Part shown: one piece after another, positions 47,410 to 62,464 of the stretch
How positions within the stretch are numbered: position 1 is the stretch's first letter
How the letters are laid out: each line of letters begins with the position of its first letter
Source of the DNA: Candidatus Pacearchaeota archaeon
Lineage (GTDB): Archaea > Nanobdellota > Nanobdellia > Pacearchaeales > GW2011-AR1
Assembly (NCBI GenBank): GCA_040879765.1
Contig: JBBDJQ010000001.1
Coordinates: forward strand, 271,747-335,746
DNA: 64,000 nucleotides
Reading direction: 5' to 3'
Made by a program: the position numbers and the translations under genes
The notes under the pieces: model-generated
Database searches by the model: none
What the model was told of the DNA's origin: nothing
Seen by the model: the letters and a program-made list of their open reading frames with translations, nothing else

Positions 47410-47604
47410 GCCCCGATAGTTCAGAGGCCAAGAATGCCGCCCTCTCAAAACTCCGAAAGTCAATTTGATATTCTAATAAAATAACTGGAGGAGAAAAAAG
47501 AGGAGTGACTTTGACTCGATGAGAGAAGATTAAGTCTAGCATCTAAATGCAGCTTGCTCTTTTGGAGAACGGCGGTGACCCGAGTTCGAATCTCGGTCGG
47601 GGCG
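47410..47604 (+). tRNA. tRNA-Glu (CTC) interrupted by a ~122-nt intron (47448-47569)
   Basis: Exon 1: GCCCCGA-TA-GTTC-AGAGGCCAA-GAAT-G-CCGCC-CTCTCA. Exon 2: C-GGCGG-TGAC-CCGAG-TTCGAAT-CTCGG-TCGGGGC-G. The acceptor and anticodon stems pair perfectly once the insert is removed. Confidence 0.6.
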
Positions 47605-47663
47605 TTGGACATTTATGTCCCAAAAATACAAAGGTTTTTATAGTTCTACGACGATAGTTTTGT

Positions 47664-47915
47664 ATGCCGAAAGATAATGATAAACTAAAAGAAATTGTTG
47701 GAGGAACGTTTAAGAGAGTTGTTTCTGATTTGATAGTTGGAATATTATTCTATGCCTTTATGCCAATTCATTGGATTTTTGTAGTTATGTTTATTTTATT
47801 CATTGGGGGAAATATTTATACAATAATTTATTCTGCAATTGAATTAAATGACTTTAAGCCATTGATCTATTTCTTAATGACAAATTGGGTAGGAGGTTCA
47901 GATGGCGAACAATAA
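47664..47915 (+). CDS. Small membrane protein
   Basis: Two TM helices; overlaps the int start. Confidence 0.3.
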   Translation: MPKDNDKLKEIVGGTFKRVVSDLIVGILFYAFMPIHWIFVVMFILFIGGNIYTIIYSAIELNDFKPLIYFLMTNWVGGSDGEQ

Positions 47916-49011
47916 GATTGAAGTGCATAATCGTAATGTTGAAGTAAGAATAAAGGCTACAAAAGATTGGAATATTTCAGATGAAGATAAAAAAGATTTC
48001 TATAAATTTTTAGATGATTTGGGTTTGGGCAAAGTTAACAGAGGTTTTAAGATTTCAAGAAGTAGACAGTTAAAATATTTGGATTTGTTAAGAACGCCTC
48101 TTGAATTTTGGAATAAGCCAACTTCTAAATTAACCCTTAAAGATGTTGAGAAATTTGAGAAAGCTTTGAGTAGCGATGAAATAAGATCTAAGATAAAGGG
48201 TGTTTACGCAAATGAAACAAAGAGGGATATTAAATTAGCACTAAGAATTTATTTGAAATGGAAATTGGGAGTTGCCAAAGCTTCTGAATTAGCTGGATGG
48301 TTAGACACGAGAAGAGTCGCAAGAACACCCGATTACATTAAAGAAGTTGATGTTGAGAAGTTGTATAAGGCTTGTAAGTCTGCCTCTGAGAGGTTCTTAA
48401 TCGCCGTTCTTTTCGACTCTGGTGCAAGAATAGAAGAATTTCTTAATATTAGATATGAAGACTTAGAATTGCCAAGAGAAGGCGAAGAATTTGTTAAACT
48501 TACATTAAAAGAAGAATATTCTAAGACTAAGGGGAGAACGATAAGACTTTATTGGAAATACAGTTTAGAAGCAGTAAAAGATTTTCAAAAAGAAAGAGAA
48601 CAGGAGGGAATAAAAGCGAATGAACAAATGTATCCCAAAGCTTACGACCCTACAAGAAAATTTTTACAAAGATTGGGACAGAAGATTTTGAATCGCTCAG
48701 TATCACCTCATTTATTTAGACATAGTTCAGCAACTTATTACGCAAATAAGATGAATAGGCAAGAATTATGTTATCGTTATGGATGGGCTTTTAGTTCTCA
48801 TATGCCAGACACATATATTTCAAGATCAGGAATGATGAATAAAGAATTAGATGTTAAGTTTAAGGCAACAGAAATCAACAAAGTCCAATCTGAATTAGAA
48901 AAACAAAGACAAGAGAATAAGATATTAAAAGACCAAATGCAAAGACAATTAGACGAGATTAGAGAGCAATTAGCAGGACAAAGCCTTAAGCAAATAGCCA
49001 AAAAATCATAA
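47902..49011 (+). CDS. int: Tyrosine recombinase / integrase
   Basis: Catalytic region with Arg-I (SGARIEE), HLFRHSSATYYA (H-x-x-R-H box II) and a downstream Tyr (LCYRYGW). Located immediately 3' of a tRNA gene. Confidence 0.85.
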   Translation: MANNKIEVHNRNVEVRIKATKDWNISDEDKKDFYKFLDDLGLGKVNRGFKISRSRQLKYLDLLRTPLEFWNKPTSKLTLKDVEKFEKALSSDEIRSKIKGVYANETKRDIKLALRIYLKWKLGVAKASELAGWLDTRRVARTPDYIKEVDVEKLYKACKSASERFLIAVLFDSGARIEEFLNIRYEDLELPREGEEFVKLTLKEEYSKTKGRTIRLYWKYSLEAVKDFQKEREQEGIKANEQMYPKAYDPTRKFLQRLGQKILNRSVSPHLFRHSSATYYANKMNRQELCYRYGWAFSSHMPDTYISRSGMMNKELDVKFKATEINKVQSELEKQRQENKILKDQMQRQLDEIREQLAGQSLKQIAKKS

Positions 49012-49023
49012 ATCACTTTCATA

Positions 49024-49656
49024 ATGAACGAACTAAAGAAGGAACGAAAAAAAAGAGAAGTTAACAAGTTGCCAAAACTTTGGAAGGAGATATTTAGAGT
49101 TTTTATGCTTGATAAAAGAGAAGGATTAAAAGAGCCAGAGATTGTTAAAAAAAAGAAAGATGGCAGAATAAAAAAGTTGACTATTCCACAAAAAAATCAA
49201 ATTAAAAGATACAATTATTTAAAAAATAAGAAAAATAATTTTTTTAAAAAACTTACAGCAGAAGAAATACTTATGCTTGCTGGAATAAAATATTCCGAGA
49301 GAACTCAAACTCATTTAAGGGATCATTTAGAAAAATTATCAAAGAAAAAAATAATTATCAAAGAAAAAGCAAAAGATAGAAAGAATAAATTTCTCTGGAA
49401 AATGAATTATGATTTTAATGAGGGTTTGAAATTATTGTATGAATGTCCTTGGATTCTGGAGGATATGAAGGGAAACGAAGATGCATTTGAATTAAGTATG
49501 GATAATATGAGGCAAAAAACAAAGATTTTGAAAAGTCACGCAAAGACACTTATTGTTTCAAGCAAAGATTCTAAGGAGACAGAGGTAGTTCAGGAGATTT
49601 ATGATAACTGGGAAGATAAAGAACATATGAATGATTTGATTAAAAAATTTACTTAA
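49024..49656 (+). CDS. Lys-rich hypothetical protein
   Basis: ORF only. Confidence 0.4.
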   Translation: MNELKKERKKREVNKLPKLWKEIFRVFMLDKREGLKEPEIVKKKKDGRIKKLTIPQKNQIKRYNYLKNKKNNFFKKLTAEEILMLAGIKYSERTQTHLRDHLEKLSKKKIIIKEKAKDRKNKFLWKMNYDFNEGLKLLYECPWILEDMKGNEDAFELSMDNMRQKTKILKSHAKTLIVSSKDSKETEVVQEIYDNWEDKEHMNDLIKKFT

Positions 49657-49807
49657 AATTTACTACCTTTTTTTCTAAAAAAGTTCGGAATGTGATTTAA
49701 TAATAGAAGAATAATATCTTCTATGGAAAAAGTTAACGAACTGATAACTATCAAATTAAAGAAGAGCGATCTAAAGAAAATTCTTCTTCGGAATTGGGAT
49801 TTATTAG

Positions 49808-50533
49808 ATGAAGATACAAAGCGAATGCTCGTTATATCTGAATTGGTCGATGGAGGTTCTTATGATGGGAACTGAACAAAAAAGATGTAATAAGTGTGGA
49901 CAGCTTTCTTACAATGGACAATTTAAAGGAAATAGATTTTTCTGTTCTGATTGTTTAGAATATCATAGGATATCTGACGCCGATACTTATGGGGACAAAC
50001 TGTCAAGAGAACAGCTAAAACAAGAACAAACAAGAAAAGCACAAGAACAATTGTTGAGATTAGTTAGAAGAGCCAAGCCAGTGGATTTTTACACAAAAAA
50101 AATAAACAAAACAGGAACTAATTTTTTAGAAGTTGATGTTAGTCCTTATGCACATTCTATTGATTGGGGAAAAATGAGGCAAGATTATGGAGAGCTTTTA
50201 AAAGATAAGGTCTCAGATCCAAAGTTACTCAATGATATTATAAAATATAGGGATAAGATTCTGAAACATAGGCTATCTTGTGATGTTAAATTGCTTTCTA
50301 AAGGGACAGAAGTGGGGGAACTTAAGGTATACCGAATTTTAGTAGAAGATGGACACCATATTGTAAAATTTTGGACAAATAAGGAAGTTGATCCTTCTAG
50401 TGTAAATAATCAAGTATATCTTTTTCAAAGGGAACTAAGTTTAAGTGGAAGGGGTGGAGAAGTTAGAGTTTCAAAAGTTCCCTCTAGATATATCAATATC
50501 GACGAAGTTAAATTAAAATTCAGTTTTTCTTAA
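49808..50533 (+). CDS. Zinc-finger protein; the probable true start is the MMGTEQKRCNKCG Met at about 49862
   Basis: CNKCG...CSDCLEYH zinc ribbon at the N-terminus. Confidence 0.4.
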   Translation: MKIQSECSLYLNWSMEVLMMGTEQKRCNKCGQLSYNGQFKGNRFFCSDCLEYHRISDADTYGDKLSREQLKQEQTRKAQEQLLRLVRRAKPVDFYTKKINKTGTNFLEVDVSPYAHSIDWGKMRQDYGELLKDKVSDPKLLNDIIKYRDKILKHRLSCDVKLLSKGTEVGELKVYRILVEDGHHIVKFWTNKEVDPSSVNNQVYLFQRELSLSGRGGEVRVSKVPSRYINIDEVKLKFSFS

Positions 50534-50534
50534 A

Positions 50535-50750
50535 ATGGATGAACGGTATACCTCCGAAATAATTGGAAACAAAGTTGTAGTTTGGACTATTGCTGGGTTG
50601 AAGTATGTTGGAGAAACTATCTGGATAGATTCTATTTCTATTTGGGTTAAAGATACAATTGCAAGATGTGAAAGGATTATTCCATTAACTGCAATTTCCA
50701 GTATTGAATTAAGATCGACAAATGCTATCTCGGAGGGATATAGAAAATGA
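50535..50750 (+). CDS. Small hypothetical protein
   Basis: ORF packed between neighbours with a 4-nt overlap. Confidence 0.3.
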   Translation: MDERYTSEIIGNKVVVWTIAGLKYVGETIWIDSISIWVKDTIARCERIIPLTAISSIELRSTNAISEGYRK

Positions 50751-51940
50751 AGAGCATAACTCTCGGAGAATTAAGGAAACAAGTTGGAGACTACCTCTAT
50801 ATGGAAGATACTGATTTTTTAGATTTGGTCTTAGCAACCTTTCTTTCTACGAATCAAACAAATTGTAAATTATGGTTATTTATTATTGGAATGAGTGGGG
50901 GAGGTAAATCAGAATTAATTAATCTTTTTGACGATGATAGGAATGGAACATATTTTTTAAACAAAATAACGGCGAATGCAATTATTACAGGATATAAATC
51001 TAAAACCTTCGATACTGATTTGGTTGAACAACTTAGAAATAAAATACTTCTAATTCCTGAAATGGCTTCAATACTTGGGCAAACAAAAGAAAATCGTTCT
51101 CAAATATTAGCTCAATTAAGATCACTTCACGACGGGAAGATGGGAGTTGTGTCAGGTTATGGAAAAGCTAAGAACTATACCAATCTAAATGTTACTTTAG
51201 TCGCTTGTTCAACTCCGATAATTGATAGAATGATTTCACTAGGACAAGAATTAGGATCAAGAGAATTAGTTTATCGTTTAGCTAAAATGGATTCTGAAAA
51301 GTTAATGCAAAGGATAAAAGAAAATTCAAATAAAAATAAATCAAAGATAAGGGAGGAGCTAAAAGAATTAGTCTATTTATTTCTTAAGGAAAGGAAATTT
51401 AATCCGGTTCATATCCCTGAAGAAATAGCAGACAATATCAAAAATTTTGCACATCTATTAACTTATCTTAGAGCTTCTGTAAATATTGATGACAGGACAG
51501 GAGAATTGGAAGGAGAGCCTCATTTAGAAGCTCCCACAAGGGTTTACGATCAATTATTAACTTACTTTCGAGCATTAAAGTCTTTAGATGATAATTACTC
51601 AGATGAAAAAGCGTTAAATCTTATCGGCAAAATAGTGATTTCAAGTGTAGACCCCGTTAGACTAAAAGTTTTAAAATTTCTAATGGAAAACAAATTAGGA
51701 AATATTGAAGGATTCGGAAAGGGACAAATTGCCAATGAAATAAGAATAAGTCCTAAGCGAGTTTTTGGGGAGGCGTGTGTTCTTTCTTGTTTAGATTTTG
51801 TTAGGATGGAATCTGAAGAAATTAAGAAAACTGAGGATAAATATTGGCATAAATTTGAATTAAATTCCGGGAATCCTTTCGTTAGACATCTTGCAAAATA
51901 CTTAGAAATTCAATTAGAACCAGATTACGAAAAAATATAG
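50747..51940 (+). CDS. P-loop NTPase, putatively a superfamily-3-like replicative helicase
   Basis: Walker A IIGMSGGGKSEL, Walker B-like ILLIPEMAS, and a motif-C-like NLNVTLVACSTP segment. Confidence 0.5.
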   Translation: MKSITLGELRKQVGDYLYMEDTDFLDLVLATFLSTNQTNCKLWLFIIGMSGGGKSELINLFDDDRNGTYFLNKITANAIITGYKSKTFDTDLVEQLRNKILLIPEMASILGQTKENRSQILAQLRSLHDGKMGVVSGYGKAKNYTNLNVTLVACSTPIIDRMISLGQELGSRELVYRLAKMDSEKLMQRIKENSNKNKSKIREELKELVYLFLKERKFNPVHIPEEIADNIKNFAHLLTYLRASVNIDDRTGELEGEPHLEAPTRVYDQLLTYFRALKSLDDNYSDEKALNLIGKIVISSVDPVRLKVLKFLMENKLGNIEGFGKGQIANEIRISPKRVFGEACVLSCLDFVRMESEEIKKTEDKYWHKFELNSGNPFVRHLAKYLEIQLEPDYEKI

Positions 51941-51987: not shown

Positions 51988-53808
51988 ATGATAATAGCCT
52001 TAGATACAGAAACCTACAAATTTAACAAAGAAAAAGAAGTTTATGAGCCTAGTTTGGATGCTAGAGATTTTGTTTTGGGTTGCATTAAAATTGATAAAAA
52101 GAAAAAGCCTTTATGGTTCACAAGCCCTGAAGAAATGTTTGACTTTTTATTGGATTTTATTGATAAAAGAAAAAAGGAAGGACATAATTGTTATATTTAT
52201 GCCCACAATCATTCTTATGATTTATACGCCTATGCAAAGAATAGAATTAATGATGTTGAAATATTAAAAGTCAAACAACAGAAGCCTTTGTTCGCTCTAC
52301 TAAACGAAACTGGCTTGTTATTGGACACATTATCTTTCTATAAATGTCCCTTGAAAAAGGTCGGAAAATTAGTGGGGCTTCCAAAGTTAGAAATGCCTGA
52401 TGAAGTTAAGGATTTATCGGAGTTAAAAGAATATCTCTTAAGAGATGTAGAAATCGTTATGGAGTCTATTAAGATGTTGCGTGATGTCTTGAAGGGATTG
52501 TCTCACCGACCCAAGAAAATGTTAACAGCTGGAAGTTTGGCTATGAATTATTTTAAAACCCATTGTAAAAGGGAGGATTTTGAAGGTATACCTTATTCGG
52601 CTTACTTATATCGGAAAGGGACAATCCATCAGACAAAATATAATAAGTTTATCCGAAGAGCTTTGCGTGGAGGGAGATGTGAATGTTTTAGGCAAGATAA
52701 ATTCAAAAAAGTAAGTATGATTGATATTAATTCTCTTTATCCGTTTGTTATGGCAGAAATTATGAAAATACCAGACATCCTAAAAGAAAGAAGACATTAT
52801 AATATTCAAGGAATGATCCCAGATGAAGAAATTCTTGGAAAGATTGGTGTTGTCAAAGCTAAGGTTAAATTTCCTAAGAAAAAAATGGGATATTTACCAA
52901 CAAAGAATGCAAGAACGGGAAAAGGAATATTTTTTCCTTGCAATGGAGAGGTTGTTACAGGATATTGGACAACTATGGAAATAAATAATGCAATAAAAGA
53001 AGGCTATGAGGTTTTAGAAATATACGAAGCTGTTCTCTATGGGGAGTTACCATTCAATCCATTCACTAAACTAATGAGGGGGTTGTATGATTTAAGGAAA
53101 AAAAGTCAGGAGGAAATGGGTTATGTCATTAAATTATTAATGAACTCTTTAGCTGGGAAATTTGCTCAATATAGAGGGGATACTGAAAGAGCAGTTTGTC
53201 ACAGACAAGACATTTTAGAATATGAAAAAAGTGGGTTTGAGATTCAATCAGACTTAGGAGAGGAATATTTTTTATCAAAAGAAGGAGAGAAGAAAGTTCC
53301 GCCTTATGCTCATCCAATATTTACAATTTTAATTAATGCCTATGCAAGAGATTATCTATATTGGCAAATGAAGAAAATCCCATTTGAAGATTTAGTTTAT
53401 TGCGATACTGATGCGATTGCATTTGTTGGAGATCATTTAGACAAATATGACATTGGAGATAAATTGGGAGAATTTAAAACAGTGTTTGAAAATGAAGCTG
53501 GAGAATTTATCAAGGAAAAGGATTATAGATTTACAGATAAAGAAGGCGAAATATTAAAGGTAGTTTGTGCAGGAAGCACTAACAGAGAACTAACGCAGGG
53601 ACAAAGTTGGGGAGAAGAAGAAATCGTGAATAAGAAAATGTATACTTATAATATGGGTTGTAAAACAGGGAATTTTGATAAGGTTGGATCATTCTTTGAT
53701 GTTCATACGAAAATCAATCCATTAAAGAGAAAGAGAGAAATGAAGTTTCCACCACAATTTGAGGAGTTTACTCCTGAAGATTTGAAGAGTTTTTCTGAAG
53801 AAGATTAA
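51988..53808 (+). CDS. Protein-primed-type (phi29-like) family B DNA polymerase, 606 aa
   Basis: Exo I ALDTET, Exo II HNHSYD, motif A DINSLYP, motif B KLLMNSLAGKF, motif C YCDTDA, KxY (KDY), and VVCAGSTN comparable to phi29 VKCAGMTD. Confidence 0.85.
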   Translation: MIIALDTETYKFNKEKEVYEPSLDARDFVLGCIKIDKKKKPLWFTSPEEMFDFLLDFIDKRKKEGHNCYIYAHNHSYDLYAYAKNRINDVEILKVKQQKPLFALLNETGLLLDTLSFYKCPLKKVGKLVGLPKLEMPDEVKDLSELKEYLLRDVEIVMESIKMLRDVLKGLSHRPKKMLTAGSLAMNYFKTHCKREDFEGIPYSAYLYRKGTIHQTKYNKFIRRALRGGRCECFRQDKFKKVSMIDINSLYPFVMAEIMKIPDILKERRHYNIQGMIPDEEILGKIGVVKAKVKFPKKKMGYLPTKNARTGKGIFFPCNGEVVTGYWTTMEINNAIKEGYEVLEIYEAVLYGELPFNPFTKLMRGLYDLRKKSQEEMGYVIKLLMNSLAGKFAQYRGDTERAVCHRQDILEYEKSGFEIQSDLGEEYFLSKEGEKKVPPYAHPIFTILINAYARDYLYWQMKKIPFEDLVYCDTDAIAFVGDHLDKYDIGDKLGEFKTVFENEAGEFIKEKDYRFTDKEGEILKVVCAGSTNRELTQGQSWGEEEIVNKKMYTYNMGCKTGNFDKVGSFFDVHTKINPLKRKREMKFPPQFEEFTPEDLKSFSEED

Positions 53809-53838: not shown

Positions 53839-54933
53839 ATGGTAGAAAATAAATGGCAACACTTTGTTCCTCAGTTTTATTTTAAATTCTTTTCTGAAGA
53901 CGATAAAAACATCGGAATTTTTAATCTAAAAAGGCAAAGTCATTTTAAGGGAGCATTCGAAAACCAATCTGCTAAAAATTTCTTTTATAGTGAAAATGTT
54001 GAAATAGAAAAATCATTTTCTCCTCTTGAAGGAAAATTTAAGGATGTTTTAAAGAGATTAATCTTGGATGGTTTTAAACAACTAGATTCTCGTGATTATT
54101 TTGAAGTTTTGAGATTTATAACTTTCCAATTTGATAGAACAGAGTTATCAAAAAAAGCCTCTAAAGATTATACTCAAAAGTTTGTAGAGAATGTAATGAA
54201 GCCAATGATGAAGGCTAATAAGGAATTGAGAGAAAAGTTATCTCCTGAAGATATAGACAATGTTAAGATTACTCATCCCGCTGATTTTTTATATAGTGTT
54301 TTGCTCTCCTTGGAAGCGAACATTCTTTTAACAGACTTAGTTCCTGTTTTAATTAAAAATAAGACAGAGGCGGATTTTATTTTTAGTGACAATCCAATTA
54401 TAAAATATAATGGTATTTATTACTCCGAGGGGCATAGTTTTACTGGTTATCAATCGCCGGGACTTTTGGTTTTCTTTCCATTGAATCCCAAGCTTATGAT
54501 TATGTTATTTGATCCTGTTTATTATAATATAAAACTTGAGCAAAATAATGAATTTTCCTTAAATGATTTAGAAGACGTAAGTAAACTCAATAAATTCCAA
54601 TTTCATAATTGTATGAAGAATGTTTACTATTCTGATAAAAAAAGCAAAAAAGGTATAGACCTAATTTCTGAAGAATTTTTTAGTGAATATTCAAAAGGAG
54701 AAAATTTGGCTCAGATGAGGGAAATACCTAATTGGAGAGGTAATGGAAATAGTTTGTTAGTCTCTTCAAGGAAAAGTATCTCTGAAAGAATTAAATTTAA
54801 CTTCTTAAAATATGCTTCTCCAAAACAAACAATAGCCACATTTAGAGATAAAAAATTATGTGATTTATTTAATGAAAAAATAAAAGCAATTGAAGAAATG
54901 ATGGAACTTAAAAAATCTAAGAAAAAGAATTAA
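53839..54933 (+). CDS. DUF4238 family protein
   Basis: N-terminal WQHFVPQFYFKFF (H-x-V-P-Q-x-Y-L-x-x-F signature) and an internal FSDNPII motif. Confidence 0.55.
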   Translation: MVENKWQHFVPQFYFKFFSEDDKNIGIFNLKRQSHFKGAFENQSAKNFFYSENVEIEKSFSPLEGKFKDVLKRLILDGFKQLDSRDYFEVLRFITFQFDRTELSKKASKDYTQKFVENVMKPMMKANKELREKLSPEDIDNVKITHPADFLYSVLLSLEANILLTDLVPVLIKNKTEADFIFSDNPIIKYNGIYYSEGHSFTGYQSPGLLVFFPLNPKLMIMLFDPVYYNIKLEQNNEFSLNDLEDVSKLNKFQFHNCMKNVYYSDKKSKKGIDLISEEFFSEYSKGENLAQMREIPNWRGNGNSLLVSSRKSISERIKFNFLKYASPKQTIATFRDKKLCDLFNEKIKAIEEMMELKKSKKKN

Positions 54934-55286: not shown

Positions 55287-55706
55287 TTGGCTCTGGGAAA
55301 CTATTCCTTATATCTTTGGTTTACTAATCGGAGTTGGGGTAGTTATCTGGTTAAAGAAAAAGAAAAAATGAAAGGCGAAGCAACACTTGAAGCAAGAAAA
55401 TTATATAATGCTCTAAAAAAAGAGAAAGTCCCAGCATATTTAGAAAAGTGGGATGGATACAAACATATTGATATAGCTATTCCGGAAGCAATGATTAATA
55501 TAGAAATTGATGGCTGTCATCACAATCTTCACTCATTTCAAGCCTTGGCAGATTTGAAAAGAACTTATCATTCATTCAAAAAAGGTTATTTCACTCTAAG
55601 AATACCTAATTCTCTAATAAGAAATCATTTTGATGAAGTTGTAGATTTGGTTATCGAAATATTGAATGAAAGCAATGATCAATTAGATGAAGAATATTAT
55701 GACTAG
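55287..55706 (+). CDS. DUF559 / Vsr-like endonuclease-fold protein; the probable true start is at about 55366
   Basis: HIDIAIPEAMINIEIDGCHHN resembles the DUF559 core (IEvDG..H). Confidence 0.45.
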   Translation: MALGNYSLYLWFTNRSWGSYLVKEKEKMKGEATLEARKLYNALKKEKVPAYLEKWDGYKHIDIAIPEAMINIEIDGCHHNLHSFQALADLKRTYHSFKKGYFTLRIPNSLIRNHFDEVVDLVIEILNESNDQLDEEYYD

Positions 55707-55745: not shown

Positions 55746-57815
55746 ATGGAAGCAAAGGCAAGTAATTTATTAAGATTCTTGGATGGGACAAAACAATTTT
55801 TTATTCCTAAATATCAAAGACCTTATAGTTGGGAAATAAAACAATGTGATCAACTTTGGAAAGATATTATTAATGCACCTGAAAAAGGATATTTCATTGG
55901 TTCAATCGTTTATGTTGGGAAGGGATTGCAAACAATTACATCTGTTCCAGAATTTTTAGTTATTGATGGGCAACAAAGATTAACAACAATTTCCTTACTA
56001 CTTTATGCACTCAGTGAAGCAATTGAAGAGAACGGGAAGCTAGATTTGGGAACTGATCAAATAAATTCTGAAAAAATTAAAGGTTACTATTTATTCAATA
56101 CTCGAGAAGAAGGAGATATGAAATATAAATTACTTCTTTCTAAAAAAGACAAAGAGACTTTTATGAACTTGTTAGATGGATTAAAATTAGGAGAAGCTCC
56201 TACAAATATTAAAAGAAATTATGAATTTTTCAAATCAAAAATTTTAAAAACTGATTTAAAGAAAATTTATGAAGGAATAGCAAAATTAATGATTATTGAT
56301 GTGGCTTTAGATTATGAAAAAGATAATCCTCAATTGATTTTTGAAAGTTTAAATTCTACTGGCTTAGATTTGACTCAAAGCGATTTAATTAGAAATTTTG
56401 TTCTTATGGGATTAGAGAAAGAAAAGCAAGATGAATTATATTCAAATTATTGGTATCCAATGGAAGAAATGTTCTCCGGTTCAGATTCTCGGGCGGAGTT
56501 TGATTATTTTGTTAGAGATTACTTAACTATGAAAATGAAAAATATTCCAAAAGTAGGAGAGGTTTATGAAGAATATAAAAAATATCTATCTGAAAATAAA
56601 TTAGATCTTTATGAAGCAATTAAAGAACTTAATCAGTTCGCTAAACTTTATACAAATATGATATTCTCTAAATCTAATTCTAAATTAGACGAGATATTTT
56701 CTAATCTAAAAATCTTAAAGGTTGATGTAGCCTATCCTTTCTTATTAAAAATATATGATGATTATAATTCAAATAAAATTTCAATAGAAGATTTCGAATT
56801 AATCTTAAGGAATATTGAAAGTTATGTTTTTAGAAGATTAATTTGTGGTATCCCAACTAATTCAATGAATAAAACTTTTGCAACTCTTTACTCTGAAATT
56901 GAACAAGAAAATTATATTGAAAGTTTTTTGGCAAATATGCAATTAAAAGATTCATATAGGAGACTACCAACAGATGAAGAGTTTACAGCTGAACTTTTAA
57001 CAAAAGATGTATACAATCTTAGGAATAGAAATTATCTTCTTAGAAAATTAGAGAACAAAGATAGAAAAGAAGTTGTTAACGTGGAGAGTTATACTATTGA
57101 ACATATTATGCCACAAAAAGAAGGGCTTACTCCTGAATGGAAGGAAGAGTTAGGAGAAAACTGGAAGGAAGTTCACGAGAAATATTTACACACATTGGGA
57201 AATTTAACCTTAACCGGGTATAATTCTGAATTAAGTTGTAAACCTTTCAAAGAAAAACAAAGCATGGTTGGAGGATTTAAAGATAGTCCAATAAGATTAA
57301 ACAGAGATTTAGCTTTAATTAATTCTTGGAATGAAGAAAACATTTTAGAGAGAGCAAAAAAATTGGCTAAAATTTGTTCCGAGATTTGGAGAGTCCCAAT
57401 TTTATCAGAGGAAATTCTAAATAAATATAGAAAAATTGAGGAGACAAAACAAAAAGACTATACTTTAGAGGATCATATTCAATTAGCAGAAGGAGAGCAA
57501 ATGAAACCTATTTTTGAAGAATTAAGAAAAAGAATACTAAATATTGATTCTTCTGTAAGAGAAGAAATTTTGAAACTATACATCGCATATAAAAGTAATA
57601 CGAATTTTGTAGACATTATACCTCAAAAATCTAAATTGAATTTAACTATAAATCTCAAATTTGATGAAATTGAAGATCCGAAGGGGAGCTGTAAAGATAT
57701 AACTGGACAGGGTAGATGGGGAAATGGAGACGTAAGATTTTCTATTGGTTCAATGGAAGACCTGGATTATGCAATGTTTTTAATTAATCAATCATATGAA
57801 AAACATTCTGAATAA
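55746..57815 (+). CDS. DUF262 (ParB-like nuclease, N-terminal) + DUF1524 (His-Me finger, C-terminal) protein; GmrSD-like putative modification-dependent endonuclease
   Basis: FFIPKYQRPYSWEIKQC and VIDGQQRLTT are DUF262 signatures; C-terminal IEHIMPQK...H..GNLTL is DUF1524-like. Confidence 0.75.
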   Translation: MEAKASNLLRFLDGTKQFFIPKYQRPYSWEIKQCDQLWKDIINAPEKGYFIGSIVYVGKGLQTITSVPEFLVIDGQQRLTTISLLLYALSEAIEENGKLDLGTDQINSEKIKGYYLFNTREEGDMKYKLLLSKKDKETFMNLLDGLKLGEAPTNIKRNYEFFKSKILKTDLKKIYEGIAKLMIIDVALDYEKDNPQLIFESLNSTGLDLTQSDLIRNFVLMGLEKEKQDELYSNYWYPMEEMFSGSDSRAEFDYFVRDYLTMKMKNIPKVGEVYEEYKKYLSENKLDLYEAIKELNQFAKLYTNMIFSKSNSKLDEIFSNLKILKVDVAYPFLLKIYDDYNSNKISIEDFELILRNIESYVFRRLICGIPTNSMNKTFATLYSEIEQENYIESFLANMQLKDSYRRLPTDEEFTAELLTKDVYNLRNRNYLLRKLENKDRKEVVNVESYTIEHIMPQKEGLTPEWKEELGENWKEVHEKYLHTLGNLTLTGYNSELSCKPFKEKQSMVGGFKDSPIRLNRDLALINSWNEENILERAKKLAKICSEIWRVPILSEEILNKYRKIEETKQKDYTLEDHIQLAEGEQMKPIFEELRKRILNIDSSVREEILKLYIAYKSNTNFVDIIPQKSKLNLTINLKFDEIEDPKGSCKDITGQGRWGNGDVRFSIGSMEDLDYAMFLINQSYEKHSE

Positions 57816-57858: not shown

Positions 57859-59322
57859 ATGGCAATGTTAACAAAATCAAATTATTTACTGGGATTGCAA
57901 TGTCCTAAATTGCTTTGGGTGGCTAAGAATGATAAAGAGCGTATTCCAAAACCAACAGAAATAGAGCAGAAGAAATTTGATGATGGAACTTTGGTTGGAG
58001 AATTGGCTACTCAAGTATTTCCTAATGGAACAGATCTGTCAAAATTAGGGTTTAAAGAGAATATTGATAAAACAAAAGAAGCCATAAAAAATAAGGAAAT
58101 AATTTATGAAGCCGGATTTTTAGAAGACAATTTATTTTCTAGAGCAGATATTTTAAATCCTGTTGGAGACGAGTGGGATATAATAGAAGTTAAGTCAGCT
58201 ACAAAGGTTAAGGATATCAACCTTCACGATGTTGCTTTTCAAAAATATGTATATGAAAAAGCTGGGCTAAAAATTAGAAAGTGTTTCTTAATGCACATAA
58301 ATAATGAATATGTTAAAAATGGAGAAATTGAACCTTCGGAGTTATTTGTTCAAACAGATATAACCGAGAAGATAGAAGAATTTTCTGAAAATTTAAGATC
58401 CAACATTGAAAAAATGTTTAAAGTGATTGAGGGAGAAGAACCAGAATTTTGTATTGACGATATCCTAACGATAGAATACGGTAATATTTGTTTAGATGAT
58501 TTTATGGACTCTCTTCCAGAAAATAATATTTTTGAGTTTTATCGTATGTTAAAGAAAAAGATTGTTGAATTATATAAAGAAGGCTGTAAGTGTATGGACG
58601 ATGTTCCCGAATCAGTAAAACTTAACGAGAAACAAGCAATACAAAAAAGATTATGCTGTGACGGAGGAGTTCATATAAACAAACAAGGCATAAATAATTT
58701 TTTGAGAAATTTGGAATATCCTATTTACTATTTAGATTTTGAAACAATTAATCCTATACTTCCAAAATTTGAAGGAATGAAATCTTATCAAAGAATACCT
58801 TTTCAGTTTTCATTACATATACAAAAACAGAAAGGTGGAGAACTAAAACATATTTCTTTTTTAGCAGATGGGACAAGTGATCCGAGACCAAAGTTTATGC
58901 AATCTTTAAAAGATAATTTGGGAAATAAGGGAAGTGTCCTTGTTTATAATCAAGGATTTGAAAAAGGTGTTATGAATGAATGTGCAACAGCTTTTCCTGA
59001 ATTTAGGAAATGGTATGATGAGGTTATTTTACATAGGATAAAAGACCTCTGGGATGTCTTTAGAAACTTTGATTATTATGATCCAAAACAAAAGGGATCT
59101 TGTTCTATAAAATACGTATTGCCCGTAATGAGTGATTTGTCCTATAAAGATTTAGAACACGTCAAGAAGGGAGATCAGGCTTCTTTTGAATGGGAAAGAG
59201 TTACTTACAATGAAATTGACTATAAAGAAAAACAAAAGATAAGAGACGCTTTGGAAAAATATTGTTGTTTAGATACTCTTGCAGAAGTTAAGATTTTGGA
59301 TAAGCTGTATGAGGTTGTCTAA
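57859..59322 (+). CDS. DUF2779-like protein with a PD-(D/E)xK nuclease core and a C-terminal Cys cluster
   Basis: The N-terminus MLTKSNYLLGLQCPKLLWV matches the DUF2779 start. WDIIEVKSATK is a D..EVK nuclease motif, and several Cys residues sit near the C-terminus. Confidence 0.5.
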   Translation: MAMLTKSNYLLGLQCPKLLWVAKNDKERIPKPTEIEQKKFDDGTLVGELATQVFPNGTDLSKLGFKENIDKTKEAIKNKEIIYEAGFLEDNLFSRADILNPVGDEWDIIEVKSATKVKDINLHDVAFQKYVYEKAGLKIRKCFLMHINNEYVKNGEIEPSELFVQTDITEKIEEFSENLRSNIEKMFKVIEGEEPEFCIDDILTIEYGNICLDDFMDSLPENNIFEFYRMLKKKIVELYKEGCKCMDDVPESVKLNEKQAIQKRLCCDGGVHINKQGINNFLRNLEYPIYYLDFETINPILPKFEGMKSYQRIPFQFSLHIQKQKGGELKHISFLADGTSDPRPKFMQSLKDNLGNKGSVLVYNQGFEKGVMNECATAFPEFRKWYDEVILHRIKDLWDVFRNFDYYDPKQKGSCSIKYVLPVMSDLSYKDLEHVKKGDQASFEWERVTYNEIDYKEKQKIRDALEKYCCLDTLAEVKILDKLYEVV

Positions 59323-59399: not shown

Positions 59400-60401
59400 A
59401 TGAAAAAGAGGTATAATGTCATTGATTTATTTTCTGGAGCAGGAGGTTTGTCTTTGGGATTTGAAAATGAAGGATTTGAAAATATATTTTCAATAGATTT
59501 GATGAAAGATTATTGTGACACATATAGAAAGAATTTTCCACATCACAAATTAATTCAAGAGGATATATTGAAATTAACTTCTGAAAAAATCAGAAAAATC
59601 CTTGGAAATAATAAAGTTGATGTAATTATTGGAGGTCCGCCCTGTCAAGGATTTAGTATGGCGGGGAATATTGGAAGAACTTTTATTGATGACCCAAGAA
59701 ATCATCTATTTAGAGAATTTGCAAGAGTTGTTTCAGTAGTAAAGCCTAAAATTTTTGTTATGGAGAATGTTGCAAGACTATTTACCCATAATAAGGGAAA
59801 AACAAAAGAAGAGATAATAGATTCATTTGAAAAATTGGGTTATAAGGTAGACTGCAAGATTTTATGTTCAGCCGATTATGGGGTTCCTCAGATAAGGAAC
59901 AGAGTTATTTTCATAGGAAATAAAATAAATAAAAAGAATATTTTCCCCCAAAAGAATGTTAAAAAATATAAAACAATTAAAGAAGCTATTGGAAATTTAC
60001 CTCAATTAAAATCAGGAGAAGTTTCAACTATTTCAAATCATCAAGCAATGAATCATACAGGGGATATGTTAAAAAAAATGGATTTTATCAAAGATGGAGG
60101 AGATAGGTTCCAAATACCAAATAATCTTAGACCTAAAAGTGGAGACATTAGAAAATACATAAAATACGATAGCTCCAAACCTTCTATCTGTATAACTGGG
60201 GATATGAGAAAAGTTTTTCATTATAATCAAAATAGGGCTTTAACAGTAAGAGAGCTAGCAAGAATACAATCTTTCCCAGATTCATTTTTATTTGAGGGAA
60301 ATAAAATTTCACAGCAACAACAAGTAGGGAATGCAGTTCCTCCCTTAATGGCTCAAGAAATTGCAAAGGAAATAAAAAAGATGTTAAAGAAAAATGAATA
60401 A
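59400..60401 (+). CDS. dcm: DNA cytosine-5 methyltransferase
   Basis: Motif I DLFSGAGGLSLGF, motif IV GGPPCQGFS, motif VI ENV, motif X QQVGNAVPP. Confidence 0.85.
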   Translation: MKKRYNVIDLFSGAGGLSLGFENEGFENIFSIDLMKDYCDTYRKNFPHHKLIQEDILKLTSEKIRKILGNNKVDVIIGGPPCQGFSMAGNIGRTFIDDPRNHLFREFARVVSVVKPKIFVMENVARLFTHNKGKTKEEIIDSFEKLGYKVDCKILCSADYGVPQIRNRVIFIGNKINKKNIFPQKNVKKYKTIKEAIGNLPQLKSGEVSTISNHQAMNHTGDMLKKMDFIKDGGDRFQIPNNLRPKSGDIRKYIKYDSSKPSICITGDMRKVFHYNQNRALTVRELARIQSFPDSFLFEGNKISQQQQVGNAVPPLMAQEIAKEIKKMLKKNE

Positions 60402-61398
60402 ATTACCAAAGATAAATTTTATTGGAAATAAAGAGAAAATAGTAAGTTGGATATGCGAAAATATCCCTTCAGATGTAGAAACTATTTTTGATGCTTTTTC
60501 TGGAGGAGCATCTGTAAGTTATGAAGCAAAAAAAAGAGGTTTTAAGGTAATTAGTAATGATATCTTAAGTATAAATTATCTTTTATCTAAAGCAATAATT
60601 GAAAATAAAAAAGACACCTTTGATGAAAAAGATTTAAATCTTATATTTGAGGGAAAACCAATAAAAGGATTTATGTATAAAAATTATTCAGAAGTTTTTT
60701 TCTTCCCAAAAGAATGTATGGAATTAGATATATATAGAAAGAACATCGATAAATTAGATTCCGAAAATAAAAAAGCGTTAGCTTTTTCTTTAATTAGAAG
60801 AGCAATGATTCGTAAAATGCCTTATTCGAGATTTAATCTACCCTGGGATAAAATCAAACAACTTCGTGATGAAGAATATAGTTATAACAAATATAAAAGA
60901 AAAAGGGCATATCACAATAAGACAATCAAAGAACATTTTCTTGAGAACCTTCAAGAATATAATAAAGCAGTGTTTGATAATAATAAGAAAAACAAGGCAT
61001 ATAACAAAGATATTTTTGAGCTAATTCCTAAAATTAATGCAGACCTTATTTATTTGGACCCTCCTTATACGGGAACAATGAATAATTATTTTGGATTTTA
61101 TGGCTTAATCGATGAATATATTAAACAAGAGAAATTAAAACCCTTTAAAAATAATTTTATTGAAAAAAATAAATCCATTGAGCTTTTCGATAATTTATTC
61201 TCTAGACTAGGAAAATTTAAGTATTGGATTTTAAGTTATAATAATTCTTCATACCCCACTAAAGAGCAATTATTATCTTTATTGAAAAAATATTCCGATG
61301 ATGTTAAGGTTATAGAGAGGAAACATAATTATCAAGTAACTGGAAAATTGAAAAAAACTAAAAATAAAGAGTATCTTTTTATTGTTAAGAATAAATAA
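60394..61398 (+). CDS. Dam-like (D12 class) N6-adenine DNA methyltransferase
   Basis: N-terminal FIGNKEKI...IFDAFSGGASV and catalytic DPPY (IYLDPPYTG); overlaps dcm by 8 nt. Confidence 0.8.
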   Translation: MNKLPKINFIGNKEKIVSWICENIPSDVETIFDAFSGGASVSYEAKKRGFKVISNDILSINYLLSKAIIENKKDTFDEKDLNLIFEGKPIKGFMYKNYSEVFFFPKECMELDIYRKNIDKLDSENKKALAFSLIRRAMIRKMPYSRFNLPWDKIKQLRDEEYSYNKYKRKRAYHNKTIKEHFLENLQEYNKAVFDNNKKNKAYNKDIFELIPKINADLIYLDPPYTGTMNNYFGFYGLIDEYIKQEKLKPFKNNFIEKNKSIELFDNLFSRLGKFKYWILSYNNSSYPTKEQLLSLLKKYSDDVKVIERKHNYQVTGKLKKTKNKEYLFIVKNK

Positions 61399-62464
61399 AA
61401 TGGTCAAACAAAAAAATCAAGTATATGAAAAATATTGGAGCATAACTCTTGAATATACGGACATAAACGGAGAAAGATTTATAGGAACATTAAAAATAAT
61501 TGTCGACCATATTGATAAAAATAAGGGAAAATATTCCAAGGAAATTTATCAAGAATTACAAGAAAAAATCTATGAGAAATATCCAAAAAGAGACTATGCC
61601 TCTGTGAGAAAAAGTATAAATCAGTTTGTAAAATTGGGATTTATAAATTATAAATTAAAATCTTATAGTAAGGATTGTAAAACCTTTTTAGAAGCAAGAA
61701 CTAGTAGAAAAAGAAAGACGATCTTTTCCAAAATTGTTTACCAAAATTCAAGCTTTGACAGAGACATAACTAAGAAATCTGATAAAAGAGAAATCAACTT
61801 TTTATTAAAAACATTAGAAGAGGTTGGAAATTTATCCAAAGAAGATATTGTAGCTTTAATGACTCAAGAAATAGAAAAATATCCAAAAGGCTATCTTACC
61901 GAAGAGGAGTTATTAAAGGCTAAACAAAATGCAGAAGAAATTAGATTTCTTGAAAGAAAATATAATCAGGTAAGCCACTTCAGAACTGTTTTAGCTAAAT
62001 TAGATGATATCGTTTTTGTTTCTGGGAAGTTATATTTTGAAGATGATGCTAAAGTAATCTTTGGAGAGGACTTGAAAGAAGAAATAAAAACAAGGGATAA
62101 TTATCTACACAGACTTTATAAAAACCAATTAAAAGAAGAATCTGAAGAGAAAGAGGGGGAAATTATGTGTATGGTAGAACTATTAGACTATCCATCACTT
62201 GTGGCAAGCCATATAAAACCATTCATTAAATCAAATGAGGATGAAGCCTATGACCCAGAAAACGGATTATTATTAAGTAGAAATATGGATATTTTGTTTG
62301 ATCAGGGATATATTACTTTTTCAAATGAAGGTAAAATTATCCTTTCAAAAAGGTTATCACAAGATTTAAGAGAATTTCTTAAGGATTATACTTTAAAAAA
62401 GACTTATCTAACTCCAAAGAGATTAAGTTTTCTAAAATATCATAGAGAAAACGTCTTTCATTAA
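61382..62464 (+). CDS. HNH endonuclease, putative restriction enzyme: N-terminal uncharacterised region plus C-terminal HNH domain
   Basis: HIKPFIKSNEDEAYDPENGLLLSRNMDILFDQGYITF is an HNH (HNH_2-like) motif; overlaps the Dam-like gene by 17 nt. Confidence 0.7.
   Translation: MLRINKMVKQKNQVYEKYWSITLEYTDINGERFIGTLKIIVDHIDKNKGKYSKEIYQELQEKIYEKYPKRDYASVRKSINQFVKLGFINYKLKSYSKDCKTFLEARTSRKRKTIFSKIVYQNSSFDRDITKKSDKREINFLLKTLEEVGNLSKEDIVALMTQEIEKYPKGYLTEEELLKAKQNAEEIRFLERKYNQVSHFRTVLAKLDDIVFVSGKLYFEDDAKVIFGEDLKEEIKTRDNYLHRLYKNQLKEESEEKEGEIMCMVELLDYPSLVASHIKPFIKSNEDEAYDPENGLLLSRNMDILFDQGYITFSNEGKIILSKRLSQDLREFLKDYTLKKTYLTPKRLSFLKYHRENVFH

What the first reader, a model, noticed from the sequence alone, without database searches (positions are those of the whole stretch)
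47410..62464. tRNA-Glu-adjacent integrated element combining a tyrosine recombinase, an SF3-like ATPase and a phi29-like protein-primed PolB
The sequence shows an intact tyrosine recombinase gene 300 nt downstream of an intron-containing tRNA-Glu. It is followed, on one strand, by a zinc-finger protein, a Walker A/B ATPase with SF3-helicase-like motifs, and a 606-aa family B polymerase. That polymerase carries the full phi29-type motif set: ALDTET, HNHSYD, DINSLYP, KLLMNSLAGKF, YCDTDA, KDY and VVCAGSTN. By inference, this is a self-replicating integrative element. The polymerase keeps a canonical KxY motif, so it is not a pipolin piPolB. There is no Cas1, so it is not a casposon. No capsid-like gene is visible. 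Archaeal elements that combine tRNA integration by a tyrosine recombinase with their own small protein-primed PolB are, to my knowledge, not a described class. No terminal-protein candidate is obvious; the K-rich 49024-49656 product or the zinc-finger protein could play that role.
Basis: partly seen in the sequence, partly recalled or inferred. Interest (0 to 1): 0.85.

Follow-up and report, generated by a model that had tools for sequence, protein, structure and literature searches.

The report
Integrating archaeal element with own polymerase
A 17.4-kb mobile element sits in a tRNA-Glu gene of a tiny DPANN archaeon; it carries its own phi29-type DNA polymerase, a helicase and anti-virus genes, so it is an archaeal counterpart of bacterial pipolins, and how its polymerase starts synthesis is unknown.

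Summary
An intron-containing tRNA-Glu(CTC) lies at 47409-47605. On one strand it is followed by a tyrosine recombinase, a zinc-ribbon protein, a P-loop ATPase and a 606-aa family-B polymerase with every exonuclease and polymerase motif intact.

The element is longer than reported. A 13-bp repeat of the tRNA 3' end (TCGGTCGGGGCGT) recurs 1,024 nt beyond the window, giving a 17.4-kb insert with no terminal inverted repeats.

The host is a DPANN archaeon (Pacearchaeota/Woesearchaeota). At least nine relatives keep the core integrase, zinc-ribbon/CTD protein and PolB, with or without the helicase, next to tRNA-Glu or tRNA-Asp. Their cargo varies and is rich in defence genes.

It is not a pipolin: the motifs are DTD and KxY, not TTD and KTRG. 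It is not a casposon: there is no Cas1 and no inverted repeats. No capsid module was found.

The ATPase belongs to the helicase family normally fused to Prim-Pol primases. More distant PolB relatives sit on virus-like contigs.

Best reading: a non-viral integrative element that excises as a circle and replicates with its own helicase and PolB. Priming is unresolved. It is a new variant of the self-synthesizing element theme. One relevant 2024 paper could not be read.

The parts
47409..47605 (+). tRNA-Glu(CTC) with a 122-nt intron; integration target
   Evidence: ARAGORN with introns allowed. Missed by default ARAGORN and by Rfam at gathering threshold.
47593..47605 (+). attL core TCGGTCGGGGCGT, the 3' strand of the acceptor stem plus the discriminator base
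   Evidence: Exact direct repeats at composite 65024-65036 (attR1) and 65811-65823 (attR2), both beyond the window in L001.
47607..47619 (+). Palindrome GGACATTTATGTC just inside the left end; putative integrase-binding site
   Evidence: The partner motif GGACACTTTTGTC lies 6 nt inside attR1 (composite 65005). The same pair flanks the L012 element. The binding role is inferred.
47664..47915 (+). 83-aa protein with two hydrophobic helices; accessory gene
   Evidence: Hydropathy. In L002 and L012 the integrase starts directly after the tRNA, and no homologue was found in any fetched locus. No similarity to the small hydrophobic proteins of the virus-like relatives.
47902..49011 (+). Tyrosine recombinase (integrase)
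   Evidence: Pfam PF00589 4.6e-12; NCBIfam XerA-like. By eye the R..K..HxxR..W..Y residues are present. dN/dS against L002 is 0.049.
49024..49656 (+). 210-aa lysine-rich protein of unknown function
   Evidence: Homologues only in the close relatives L002 and L012. No family hit.
49723..49875 (+). 50-aa conserved small protein
   Evidence: Homologues in L002, L003, L004, L006, L012 and L013.
49865..50533 (+). Zinc-ribbon + conserved C-terminal domain ('ZnF-CTD') protein; constant partner of this PolB clade
   Evidence: Present upstream of PolB in every locus with PolB at 34% identity or more, and in the virus-like contig L076. AF2 model pLDDT 82. No fold relative. dN/dS 0.092.
50535..50750 (+). 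71-aa small protein
   Evidence: Homologues in L002, L006, L012 and L013.
50747..51940 (+). P-loop ATPase + C-terminal winged helix; stand-alone helicase module of the primase-helicase (SF3-type) family
   Evidence: 4,123 representative homologues. Many are the C-terminal half of proteins that begin with Prim-Pol/PriCT_1 or BT4734-like_N. The C-terminus matches the wHTH protein 2x4h. Weak Pfam hits to TniB and AAA_22. dN/dS 0.119.
51988..53808 (+). Family-B DNA polymerase of the phi29/tectivirus ('protein-primed') type
   Evidence: PF03175 5e-34. The family profile's best PDB hit is phi29 DNAP, 7.5e-26. All catalytic motifs are invariant. dN/dS 0.04.
53839..54933 (+). DUF4238 protein (cargo)
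   Evidence: Pfam 8.3e-34. 79% identical copy in L003.
54917..55195 (-). Winged-helix regulator (cargo)
   Evidence: Weak Pfam HTH hits. Conserved in L002, L003, L006 and L012.
55287..55706 (+). DUF559 (Vsr-like endonuclease fold) protein
   Evidence: Pfam 6e-06.
55746..57815 (+). GmrSD-type type IV restriction enzyme + DUF5655
   Evidence: Pfam GmrSD_N 4e-39 and GmrSD_C 7e-26. PADLOC Orf5 2.5e-176.
57859..59322 (+). DUF2779 protein with a Cas4-like nuclease N-terminus
   Evidence: Pfam 4.9e-39. PADLOC Cas4, weak.
59400..60401 (+). C5-cytosine DNA methyltransferase
   Evidence: Pfam 2.6e-80. PADLOC MTase_II 6e-111.
60394..61398 (+). D12-class N6-adenine DNA methyltransferase
   Evidence: Pfam 4.2e-39. 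PADLOC MTase_II 9e-150.
61382..62464 (+). HNH type II restriction endonuclease
   Evidence: Pfam HNH_2. PADLOC REase_II 1.2e-107.
62888..63832 (+). 314-aa multi-pass membrane protein with an HEFGH motif (cargo of unknown function)
   Evidence: Hydropathy. No family hits.
63938..64000 (+). Start of the last element gene (338 aa), which runs off the window. The element ends at attR1, 1,036 nt beyond the window.
   Evidence: L001 11051-12067. No family hit.

Best explanation
This is a 17.4-kb non-viral integrative mobile element of a DPANN archaeon (Pacearchaeota/Woesearchaeota). It belongs to a family whose conserved core is a tyrosine recombinase, a small 50-aa protein, a zinc-ribbon/CTD protein, often an SF3-type helicase with a winged helix, and a phi29-type family-B polymerase.

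Shown:
- The element is inserted at the 3' end of tRNA-Glu.
- It is bounded by a 13-bp direct repeat and has no terminal inverted repeats.
- All core genes are under strong purifying selection.
- The right-hand half is variable cargo rich in defence genes: a type II restriction-modification system, a GmrSD type IV restriction enzyme, and further genes such as DUF4238 and DUF2779.

Inferred:
- The integrase recombines an attP with the tRNA 3' end. The reconstructed attP is GGACACTTTTGTC-ttgcct-TCGGTCGGGGCGT-t-GGACATTTATGTC.
- The free form is therefore a circle.
- The circle is replicated by the element's own machinery. The helicase-wHTH protein would open an origin, and the strand-displacing PolB would copy the DNA with the ZnF-CTD protein as a dedicated cofactor.

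The priming step is unknown. My ranking is:
(a) PolB is primed by the ZnF-CTD protein, or primes with its help (about 35%).
(b) Host primase supplies RNA primers (about 35%).
(c) PolB extends from a nick in rolling-circle fashion (about 20%).
(d) PolB primes de novo as piPolB does (about 10%).

The defence cargo benefits the host and stabilises the element. In that respect it works like a bacterial pipolin.

The replication module is shared with virus-like contigs. The family probably arose from a provirus that lost its virion genes.
For: Boundaries:
- The att repeats occur only at the three expected places in 73.8 kb.
- The palindromic motif lies just inside both ends, here and in L012.
- Host genes resume on the right: XPD-like helicase, DnaG, SMC.

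Family and mobility:
- Relatives at 86-96% PolB identity sit at tRNA-Asp (L002, L013) or at an intron-containing tRNA (L012), and L002 has different host flanks.
- Relatives at 56% identity sit at tRNA-Glu(CTC) (L003) and tRNA-Glu(TTC) (L004).
- L003 has its own attR followed by a second integrase.
- L012 is a complete 15.2-kb copy bounded by its repeats.

Conserved core: the integrase, CTD protein and ATPase are found only with PolB at 34% identity or more, out of 77 loci.

Selection: dN/dS is 0.04-0.12 for the integrase, CTD protein, ATPase and PolB.

Polymerase type: PF03175; best PDB match phi29 DNAP at 93.9 bits against 67.8 bits for a reference piPolB; nearest viruses are MetSV and tectiviruses at about 26% identity.

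Helicase.

Cargo. Variable cargo in relatives includes the Shedu SduA domain, AbiTii, HEPN/MNT, a BsuBI restriction enzyme and PD-(D/E)XK nucleases.

No virion genes. The family was not found in IMG/VR.
Against: - No excised circle, empty site or attP junction was observed.
- Replication by the element's own proteins is inferred from gene content only.
- PolBs of this type are otherwise known only from linear genomes with inverted repeats and terminal proteins (PMC5695915, PMC7544198). The proposed circular replication therefore has no precedent for this clade.
- The helicase is missing from the subgroup at 56% identity (L003-L005). It cannot be essential to the family's replication.
- Five element ORFs have no assignable function. 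Archaeal capsid proteins are notoriously hard to detect.
- The ATPase could not be modelled (pLDDT 35), so its SF3 assignment rests on domain-fusion context.
Confidence: 0.72

Rival explanations
1. It is a provirus of an unrecognised archaeal virus, for example spindle-shaped or pleomorphic. Its virion proteins are among the unannotated ORFs: the 83-aa two-helix protein, the 314-aa membrane protein and the 338-aa protein.
For: PolB relatives at 33-38% identity (L075, L076, L077) lie on one-strand contigs. There PolB is followed by one or two 68-89-aa proteins with two hydrophobic helices and then by 511-1325-aa proteins. That layout is reminiscent of the virion modules of spindle-shaped viruses. 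L073 is an integrated version with an integrase, a helicase and a 1135-aa protein. The major capsid protein of NSV1 is 81 aa with two hydrophobic helices (PMC8491892), and the window's 83-aa ORF has the same size and hydropathy pattern.
Against: The 83-aa ORF has no homologue in any fetched locus, and in L002 and L012 the integrase starts directly after the tRNA. It shows no significant similarity to the small proteins of L073 and L075-L077. The window element has no large adhesin-like protein and no copy of the 356-384-aa P-loop protein found in the virus-like contigs. Apart from two regulators, three small ORFs and a helicase in L005, everything right of PolB in the window, L002-L005 and L012 is defence-type or unannotated, and it differs between relatives.
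Confidence: 0.12
2. It is a satellite or defective derivative. It keeps the replication module of a helper virus of the L075-L077 type and is packaged or mobilised only when that virus infects.
For: It shares the CTD + PolB module with the virus-like contigs. It has lost the virion genes but retains the integrase. Virus satellites have been reported in DPANN and haloarchaeal systems (bioRxiv 10.1101/2025.02.15.638363).
Against: No packaging signal, capsid-interaction gene or co-occurring helper was identified. Identity to the virus-like PolBs is only 33-38%.
Confidence: 0.08
3. It is an immobilised genomic island. The PolB has been taken over by the host for repair, translesion synthesis or defence rather than for replicating the element.
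For: For pipolins the in vivo role of the polymerase is also unsettled, and it has translesion activity (PMC5695915). The island is dominated by defence genes.
Against: The integrase is under strong purifying selection (dN/dS 0.049). The att repeats are perfect. Close relatives occupy different tRNA genes with different flanks. PolB is always linked to the integrase in the integrated relatives, not to host repair genes.
Confidence: 0.05
4. It is a classical protein-primed linear replicon of the casposon or polinton type that happens to lie next to an unrelated integrase.
For: The polymerase belongs to the pPolB family. A conserved ~220-aa protein is encoded close upstream of PolB (directly upstream in some relatives), which is where terminal proteins are usually encoded.
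Against: There are no inverted repeats at the ends or on any full-length relative contig. There is no Cas1 or rve integrase. The ends are direct repeats of a tRNA 3' end, the signature of tyrosine-recombinase integration.
Confidence: 0.03

Closest known systems
Pipolins (bacterial and mitochondrial piPolB-encoding integrative elements; PMC5695915, PMC11551731)
   Same: Both are integrative elements bounded by direct repeats, and both are often in tRNA genes. Both carry a tyrosine recombinase plus a PolB related to the protein-primed clade, and a second module of variable defence genes. Both are expected to have a circular free form.
   Different: This polymerase keeps YCDTDA and KDY, where piPolB has SxTTDG and KTRG. 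It scores closer to phi29 DNAP than to a reference piPolB. The host is a DPANN archaeon. It adds a ZnF-CTD protein and an SF3-type helicase.
Family 1 casposons of Thaumarchaeota (PMC6563490, PMC4104785)
   Same: Both are archaeal integrated 'self-synthesizing' elements of similar size. Both carry a pPolB-type polymerase preceded by a few conserved uncharacterised genes, plus nuclease and methyltransferase cargo.
   Different: Casposons use Cas1 and have terminal inverted repeats with target-site duplications. This element has a tyrosine recombinase, tRNA-derived direct repeats, no inverted repeats and no Cas1.
Archaeal tyrosine-recombinase elements that encode PolB (IgnAgg-E3, ArcSul-E1, PMC4104785) and thaumarchaeal cryptic integrated elements (PMC6563490)
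   Same: Integration by a tyrosine recombinase with att sites, a polymerase or other replication gene of their own, no recognisable virion genes, and restriction-modification cargo.
   Different: The paper places IgnAgg-E3's PolB with RNA-primed polymerases and calls ArcSul-E1's PolB too divergent to align. [quoted passage not shown] Homology to this family was not tested here.
Viruses and plasmids with protein-primed PolB: phi29, tectiviruses and Bacillus linear plasmids, Methanosarcina spherical virus, Muninn virus, His1, NSV1
   Same: Same polymerase family (about 26% identity to MetSV, AP50 and phi29). Muninn virus also encodes a zinc-ribbon protein alongside its pPolB (PMC9246712).
   Different: Those genomes are linear with terminal inverted repeats and encode capsid proteins. 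This element has neither, and it integrates by site-specific recombination.
Primase-helicase replication proteins of mobile elements (Prim-Pol + PriCT-1 + SF3 helicase + winged helix)
   Same: The 397-aa ATPase is homologous over its full length to the helicase + wHTH half of such proteins.
   Different: Here it stands alone, with no AEP primase domain anywhere in the element, and it is paired with a PolB instead.

Membership tests
Pipolin / piPolB | PolC motif with Thr replacing the first Asp (SxTTDG) | tested here: not met
   The window PolB has YCDTDA, and D473 and D475 are invariant in 40 homologues. The reference piPolB of pSE-12228-03 has SVTTDG.
Pipolin / piPolB | KTRG motif in place of KxY | tested here: not met
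   K511-D-Y513 is invariant. The reference piPolB has KTRG.
Pipolin / piPolB | Integrative element with a recombinase, direct repeats (often in a tRNA) and defence cargo | tested here: met
Pipolin / piPolB | Primer-independent DNA synthesis | not testable with these tools
   Needs biochemistry.
Casposon | Cas1-family casposase | tested here: not met
   No Cas1 hit in any element ORF (Pfam). PADLOC gives only a weak Cas4-like nuclease domain in DUF2779.
Casposon | [quoted passage not shown] | tested here: not met
   No inverted repeat longer than 10 nt between the ends. The ends are tRNA-derived direct repeats.
Protein-primed PolB (pPolB) clade | PF03175-type PolB with intact ExoI-III, motifs A, B and C, and KxY | tested here: met
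Protein-primed PolB (pPolB) clade | TPR1 and TPR2 insertions | tested here: inconclusive
   The profile alignment to phi29 DNAP runs continuously through both regions, and the A-B spacing is nearly identical (136 vs 134 aa). No structure was modelled.
Protein-primed PolB (pPolB) clade | Linear genome with terminal inverted repeats | tested here: not met
Protein-primed PolB (pPolB) clade | Terminal protein that primes synthesis | not testable with these tools
   The ZnF-CTD protein is the only positional candidate. Its fold has no known relative.
Tyrosine-recombinase integrative element (cryptic integrated element, sensu PMC6563490) | Tyrosine recombinase plus att direct repeats at the target | tested here: met
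Tyrosine-recombinase integrative element (cryptic integrated element, sensu PMC6563490) | No viral or conjugative hallmark genes | tested here: met
   No such hits in the Pfam scans (all element ORFs of 60 aa or more plus the 50-aa ORF), PHROGs (core and right-end ORFs), NCBIfam (core) or PADLOC (cargo). This is a negative result with limited sensitivity.
SF3 helicase | P-loop ATPase homologous to the helicase part of AEP-primase/PriCT fusions | tested here: met
SF3 helicase | SF3-specific motifs (B', C) or the SF3 fold | tested here: inconclusive
   The single-sequence model failed (pLDDT 35). Pfam gives only weak TniB, AAA_22 and AAA_16 hits.
Spindle-shaped virus provirus | Conserved alpha-helical hairpin capsid protein(s), an AAA+ ATPase and a large adhesin | tested here: not met
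   The 83-aa ORF is not conserved and not similar. There is no homologue of the 356-384-aa P-loop protein and no large protein.

The most novel reading that the evidence does not exclude
These DPANN elements are a fourth superfamily of self-synthesizing mobile elements, beside polintons, casposons and pipolins. In them a canonical DTD/KxY 'protein-primed' PolB replicates a circular, tyrosine-recombinase-integrating genome. Either the conserved ZnF-CTD protein is a new kind of protein primer or priming cofactor acting at an internal origin, or this PolB clade can start DNA synthesis without the piPolB-specific motifs. Either case would break the rule that such polymerases are confined to linear genomes with inverted repeats.
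Probability: 0.3. Interest if true: 0.8.

Novelty: new variant of a known kind. Interest (0 to 1): 0.62.

Why it matters
Protein-primed-type PolBs are treated as a marker of small linear genomes with inverted terminal repeats. Here one sits, under strong purifying selection, in a family of elements whose ends and integrase point to a circular intermediate. That makes the initiation mechanism directly testable with three small proteins: PolB, the ZnF-CTD protein and the helicase.

The finding also extends the pairing of a self-encoded polymerase with a defence-gene platform, known from bacterial pipolins, to DPANN archaea. Those organisms have tiny genomes and a poorly known mobilome.

It links that platform to a set of uncharacterised virus-like contigs that share the same replication module, which suggests an origin from a virus.

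A compact polymerase of the phi29 family may also be of practical interest.

Tried and rejected
- Thaumarchaeal origin, NSV-like provirus or family 1 casposon. This was my first guess, from the AT-rich DNA and the cupredoxin genes. I rejected it because the identical PolB is annotated on a 457-kb Pacearchaeota contig and relatives are labelled Woesearchaeota or Nanoarchaeota. There is no Cas1.
- Empty-site search using the exact left-flank proteins: nothing on record.
- attP junction search in IMG/VR: no match. The metagenome and genome scan quotas were already used.
- Terminal inverted or direct repeats on 19 full-length relative contigs: none.
- ATPase structure: the single-sequence AF2 model failed.
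- PolB phmmer against PDB found nothing. A profile was needed.
- CTD homologues and the virus-like PolB subgroup in IMG/VR: none.
- The supplement of the 2024 pipolin paper, which lists nine archaeal piPolBs, is not held.
- Wu, Liu, Ni 2024 (Nat Microbiol, DPANN viruses and mobile elements) is not held.
- A formal PolB phylogeny with a full reference set was not built, because most reference sequences were not obtainable here.

Full report
**1. What is in the sequence**

The window is about 31% GC throughout. ARAGORN with default settings and Rfam at gathering threshold see no tRNA at 47410. When introns of up to 200 nt are allowed, ARAGORN calls tRNA-Glu(ctc) at 47409-47605 with a 122-nt intron.

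From 47664 to the end of the window, nearly every long ORF is on the + strand.
- a tyrosine recombinase at 47902-49011;
- a family-B polymerase of the PF03175 'organellar and viral' type at 51988-53808 (5e-34);
- between them, a 210-aa lysine-rich protein, a 50-aa protein, a zinc-ribbon protein, a 71-aa protein and a 397-aa P-loop ATPase, none of which reaches a curated family threshold.

Downstream of the polymerase lies cargo. It comprises DUF4238, a winged-helix regulator, DUF559, a GmrSD type IV restriction enzyme, DUF2779, a Dcm and a Dam methyltransferase, and an HNH type II restriction enzyme.

**2. Boundaries**

A protein near the right end of the window occurs on a Logan contig that is identical to the window over 11,113 nt. 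That contig extends 9.8 kb further (L001).

The last 13 nt of the tRNA (TCGGTCGGGGCGT) recur as direct repeats at composite positions 65024-65036 and 65811-65823. The second copy matches 16 nt. The 13-mer occurs nowhere else in the 73.8 kb.

A palindrome, GGACA-N4/5-TGTC, lies just inside the left end (47607). It also lies 6 nt inside the first right-hand repeat (65005), but not at the second repeat. The same pair brackets the relative L012.

I therefore take 65024-65036 as attR. The element then spans about 17.4 kb. The 0.79-kb stretch up to the second repeat holds one SAM methyltransferase gene. I read it as a remnant of an older insertion.

To the right come ordinary cellular genes: an XPD-like helicase, DnaG, a surface protein and SMC. 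The element ends carry no inverted repeats.

**3. Host and relatives**

The identical polymerase is annotated by NCBI on a 457-kb contig of a 'Candidatus Pacearchaeota archaeon'. Other relatives are labelled Woesearchaeota, Nanoarchaeota or simply 'archaeon'. The host is therefore a DPANN archaeon, not a thaumarchaeon as its composition first suggested.

I fetched 77 loci. Profile searches over all of them gave three results:
- The integrase, the ZnF-CTD protein and the ATPase occur only beside PolBs that are at least 34% identical to this one.
- Every such contig that reaches far enough upstream has the integrase. These are the window, L002, L003, L004, L005, L012, L013, L016 and L073.
- The ZnF-CTD protein is present in every case, while the ATPase is present in only about half.

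The insertion sites of the relatives are:

| Locus | Site |
|---|---|
| L002, L013 | tRNA-Asp(GTC) |
| L003 | tRNA-Glu(CTC) |
| L004 | tRNA-Glu(TTC) |
| L012 | an intron-containing tRNA (the contig starts inside its intron) |
| L073 | tRNA-Asp with an intron |

. L003 has its own attR, with one mismatch, followed by a second integrase. L012 is a complete 15.2-kb copy between its repeats.

Most genes to the right of PolB differ from one relative to the next. They include a BsuBI-type restriction-modification system, PD-(D/E)XK nucleases, the Shedu SduA domain, AbiTii, HEPN/MNT pairs and DEAD helicases.

The core genes evolve under strong constraint. dN/dS against L002 is 0.049 for the integrase, 0.092 for the ZnF-CTD protein, 0.119 for the ATPase and 0.045 for PolB, with dS at or above 1.

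**4. The polymerase**

All exonuclease and polymerase catalytic residues are invariant in 40 homologues. A profile of the family finds phi29 DNA polymerase as its best solved structure (7.5e-26, 93.9 bits). The alignment runs through the TPR1 and TPR2 regions.

The nearest annotated relatives are Methanosarcina spherical virus, tectiviruses, Bacillus linear plasmids and phi29, all at about 26% identity.

The published piPolB signatures are SxTTDG and KTRG (PMC5695915). I confirmed both in a reference piPolB from plasmid pSE-12228-03 (SVTTDG, KTRG). The window enzyme instead has YCDTDA and KDY. The family profile scores the piPolB lower than phi29, at 67.8 bits.

**5. The other core proteins**

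An exhaustive HMMER search with the ATPase found 4,123 representative homologues. Many are the C-terminal halves of 610-1016-aa proteins. The N-termini of those proteins are Prim-Pol + PriCT-1, BT4734-like_N + PriCT-1, or Prim-Pol + a CHC2 zinc finger. The ATPase's own C-terminus matches winged-helix proteins.

It is therefore the helicase + DNA-binding half of the standard primase-helicase of mobile elements. Here it stands alone, without a primase domain. This supports the 'SF3-like' label by context. The fold itself could not be checked, because the model failed.

The ZnF-CTD protein gave a confident model (pLDDT 82). It has no significant structural or sequence relative in PDB or BFVD. Its zinc ribbon is sometimes a separate ORF or is absent. 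The 130-aa C-terminal domain, with invariant Y108, R129, R136, C139, Y156, E161, W170, D176 and S178, is the constant part.

**6. Link to viruses**

PolBs at 33-38% identity lie on contigs L075-L077. On these contigs all genes point one way and there is no integrase. PolB is preceded by a ZnF-CTD homologue (found in L076 only, 1.4e-18) and by a 356-384-aa P-loop protein (all three). It is followed by one or two 68-89-aa proteins with two hydrophobic helices, which fall into two paralogous families, and then by proteins of 511-1325 aa.

This layout resembles the virion modules described for spindle-shaped archaeal viruses (PMC8491892, bioRxiv 10.1101/2025.02.15.638363). However, no HMM supports that reading, and the contigs are truncated, so their ends could not be examined.

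L073 and L016 are intermediate forms. They carry an integrase, the P-loop protein, the ZnF-CTD protein, the helicase, PolB and a protein of about 1,150 aa.

The window element has none of these putative virion genes. Its 83-aa two-helix ORF has no homologue in any fetched locus and is not similar to the small proteins of the virus-like contigs. Neither the PolB clade nor the ZnF-CTD protein was found in IMG/VR.

**7. Interpretation**

Integration by site-specific recombination into a tRNA 3' end is well supported. The element is most likely a non-viral integrative element that excises as a circle and carries its own replication proteins plus defence cargo. It probably descends from a provirus.

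How replication starts is open. Classical protein priming needs linear ends, which are absent. There is no primase domain, and the piPolB motifs are absent. The strictly co-inherited ZnF-CTD protein is the obvious candidate for a priming or loading cofactor, but nothing shown here proves that.

**8. Comparison with what is known**

- Pipolins have the same architecture but a different polymerase clade, and they are bacterial. Only nine piPolBs were found in about 13,000 archaeal assemblies (PMC11551731).
- Family 1 casposons share the polymerase type but use Cas1 and have inverted repeats (PMC6563490).
- Two archaeal tyrosine-recombinase elements with other kinds of PolB were listed in 2014 (PMC4104785).
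- I found no description of this family in the searchable literature. However, the 2024 Nature Microbiology survey of DPANN viruses and mobile elements could not be read.

I therefore rate the finding as a new variant of a known kind, of moderate to high interest.

Noticed in passing
window 44619-44741 (- strand): tRNA-Thr(GGT) with an intron of about 50 nt. Rfam and intron-permissive ARAGORN find it; default ARAGORN does not. Long tRNA introns recur in the relatives: L012, L073 tRNA-Asp (72 nt) and L004 tRNA-Ile (47 nt).
   Followed up: partly
L001 12150-12923 (composite 65037-65810, just beyond the window): A 0.79-kb segment between two copies of the att repeat holds a single SAM-dependent methyltransferase gene. 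It looks like the remnant of an earlier insertion at the same tRNA, or a minimal tandem element.
   Followed up: partly
L075, L076, L077 (whole loci); L073 3796-16814: One-strand contigs with a related PolB, a 356-384-aa P-loop protein, paralogous small proteins with two hydrophobic helices, and very large proteins. They may be uncharacterised archaeal viruses of the spindle-shaped type. L073 is an integrated version next to tRNA-Asp.
   Followed up: partly
window 50747-51940: The ATPase belongs to a very large, largely unannotated family (4,123 cluster representatives). Its members are frequently fused to Prim-Pol, BT4734-like_N, PriCT-1 or CHC2 zinc-finger domains, and one member carries an intein.
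   Followed up: partly
window 62888-63832: A 314-aa multi-pass membrane protein with an HEFGH (HExxH) motif near its first membrane segment. It resembles an intramembrane metalloprotease, but no family model matches.
   Followed up: no
window 46068-47368: A DoxX-like membrane protein and two cupredoxin (plastocyanin/azurin-like) genes lie immediately left of the tRNA-Glu. This is unexpected content for a DPANN genome.
   Followed up: no
window 14868-14942: The tRNA-Asp(GTC) gene of this genome has no integrase of this family anywhere else in the window. The equivalent tRNA is the insertion site of the closely related elements in L002 and L013.
   Followed up: partly
window 49865-50533 (model m4b08ae246beb): The Foldseek list against PDB is headed by HORMA-domain proteins, including Rev7, the accessory subunit of the B-family polymerase zeta. 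The scores are far below significance (E > 0.03, TM 0.1-0.15).
   Followed up: no
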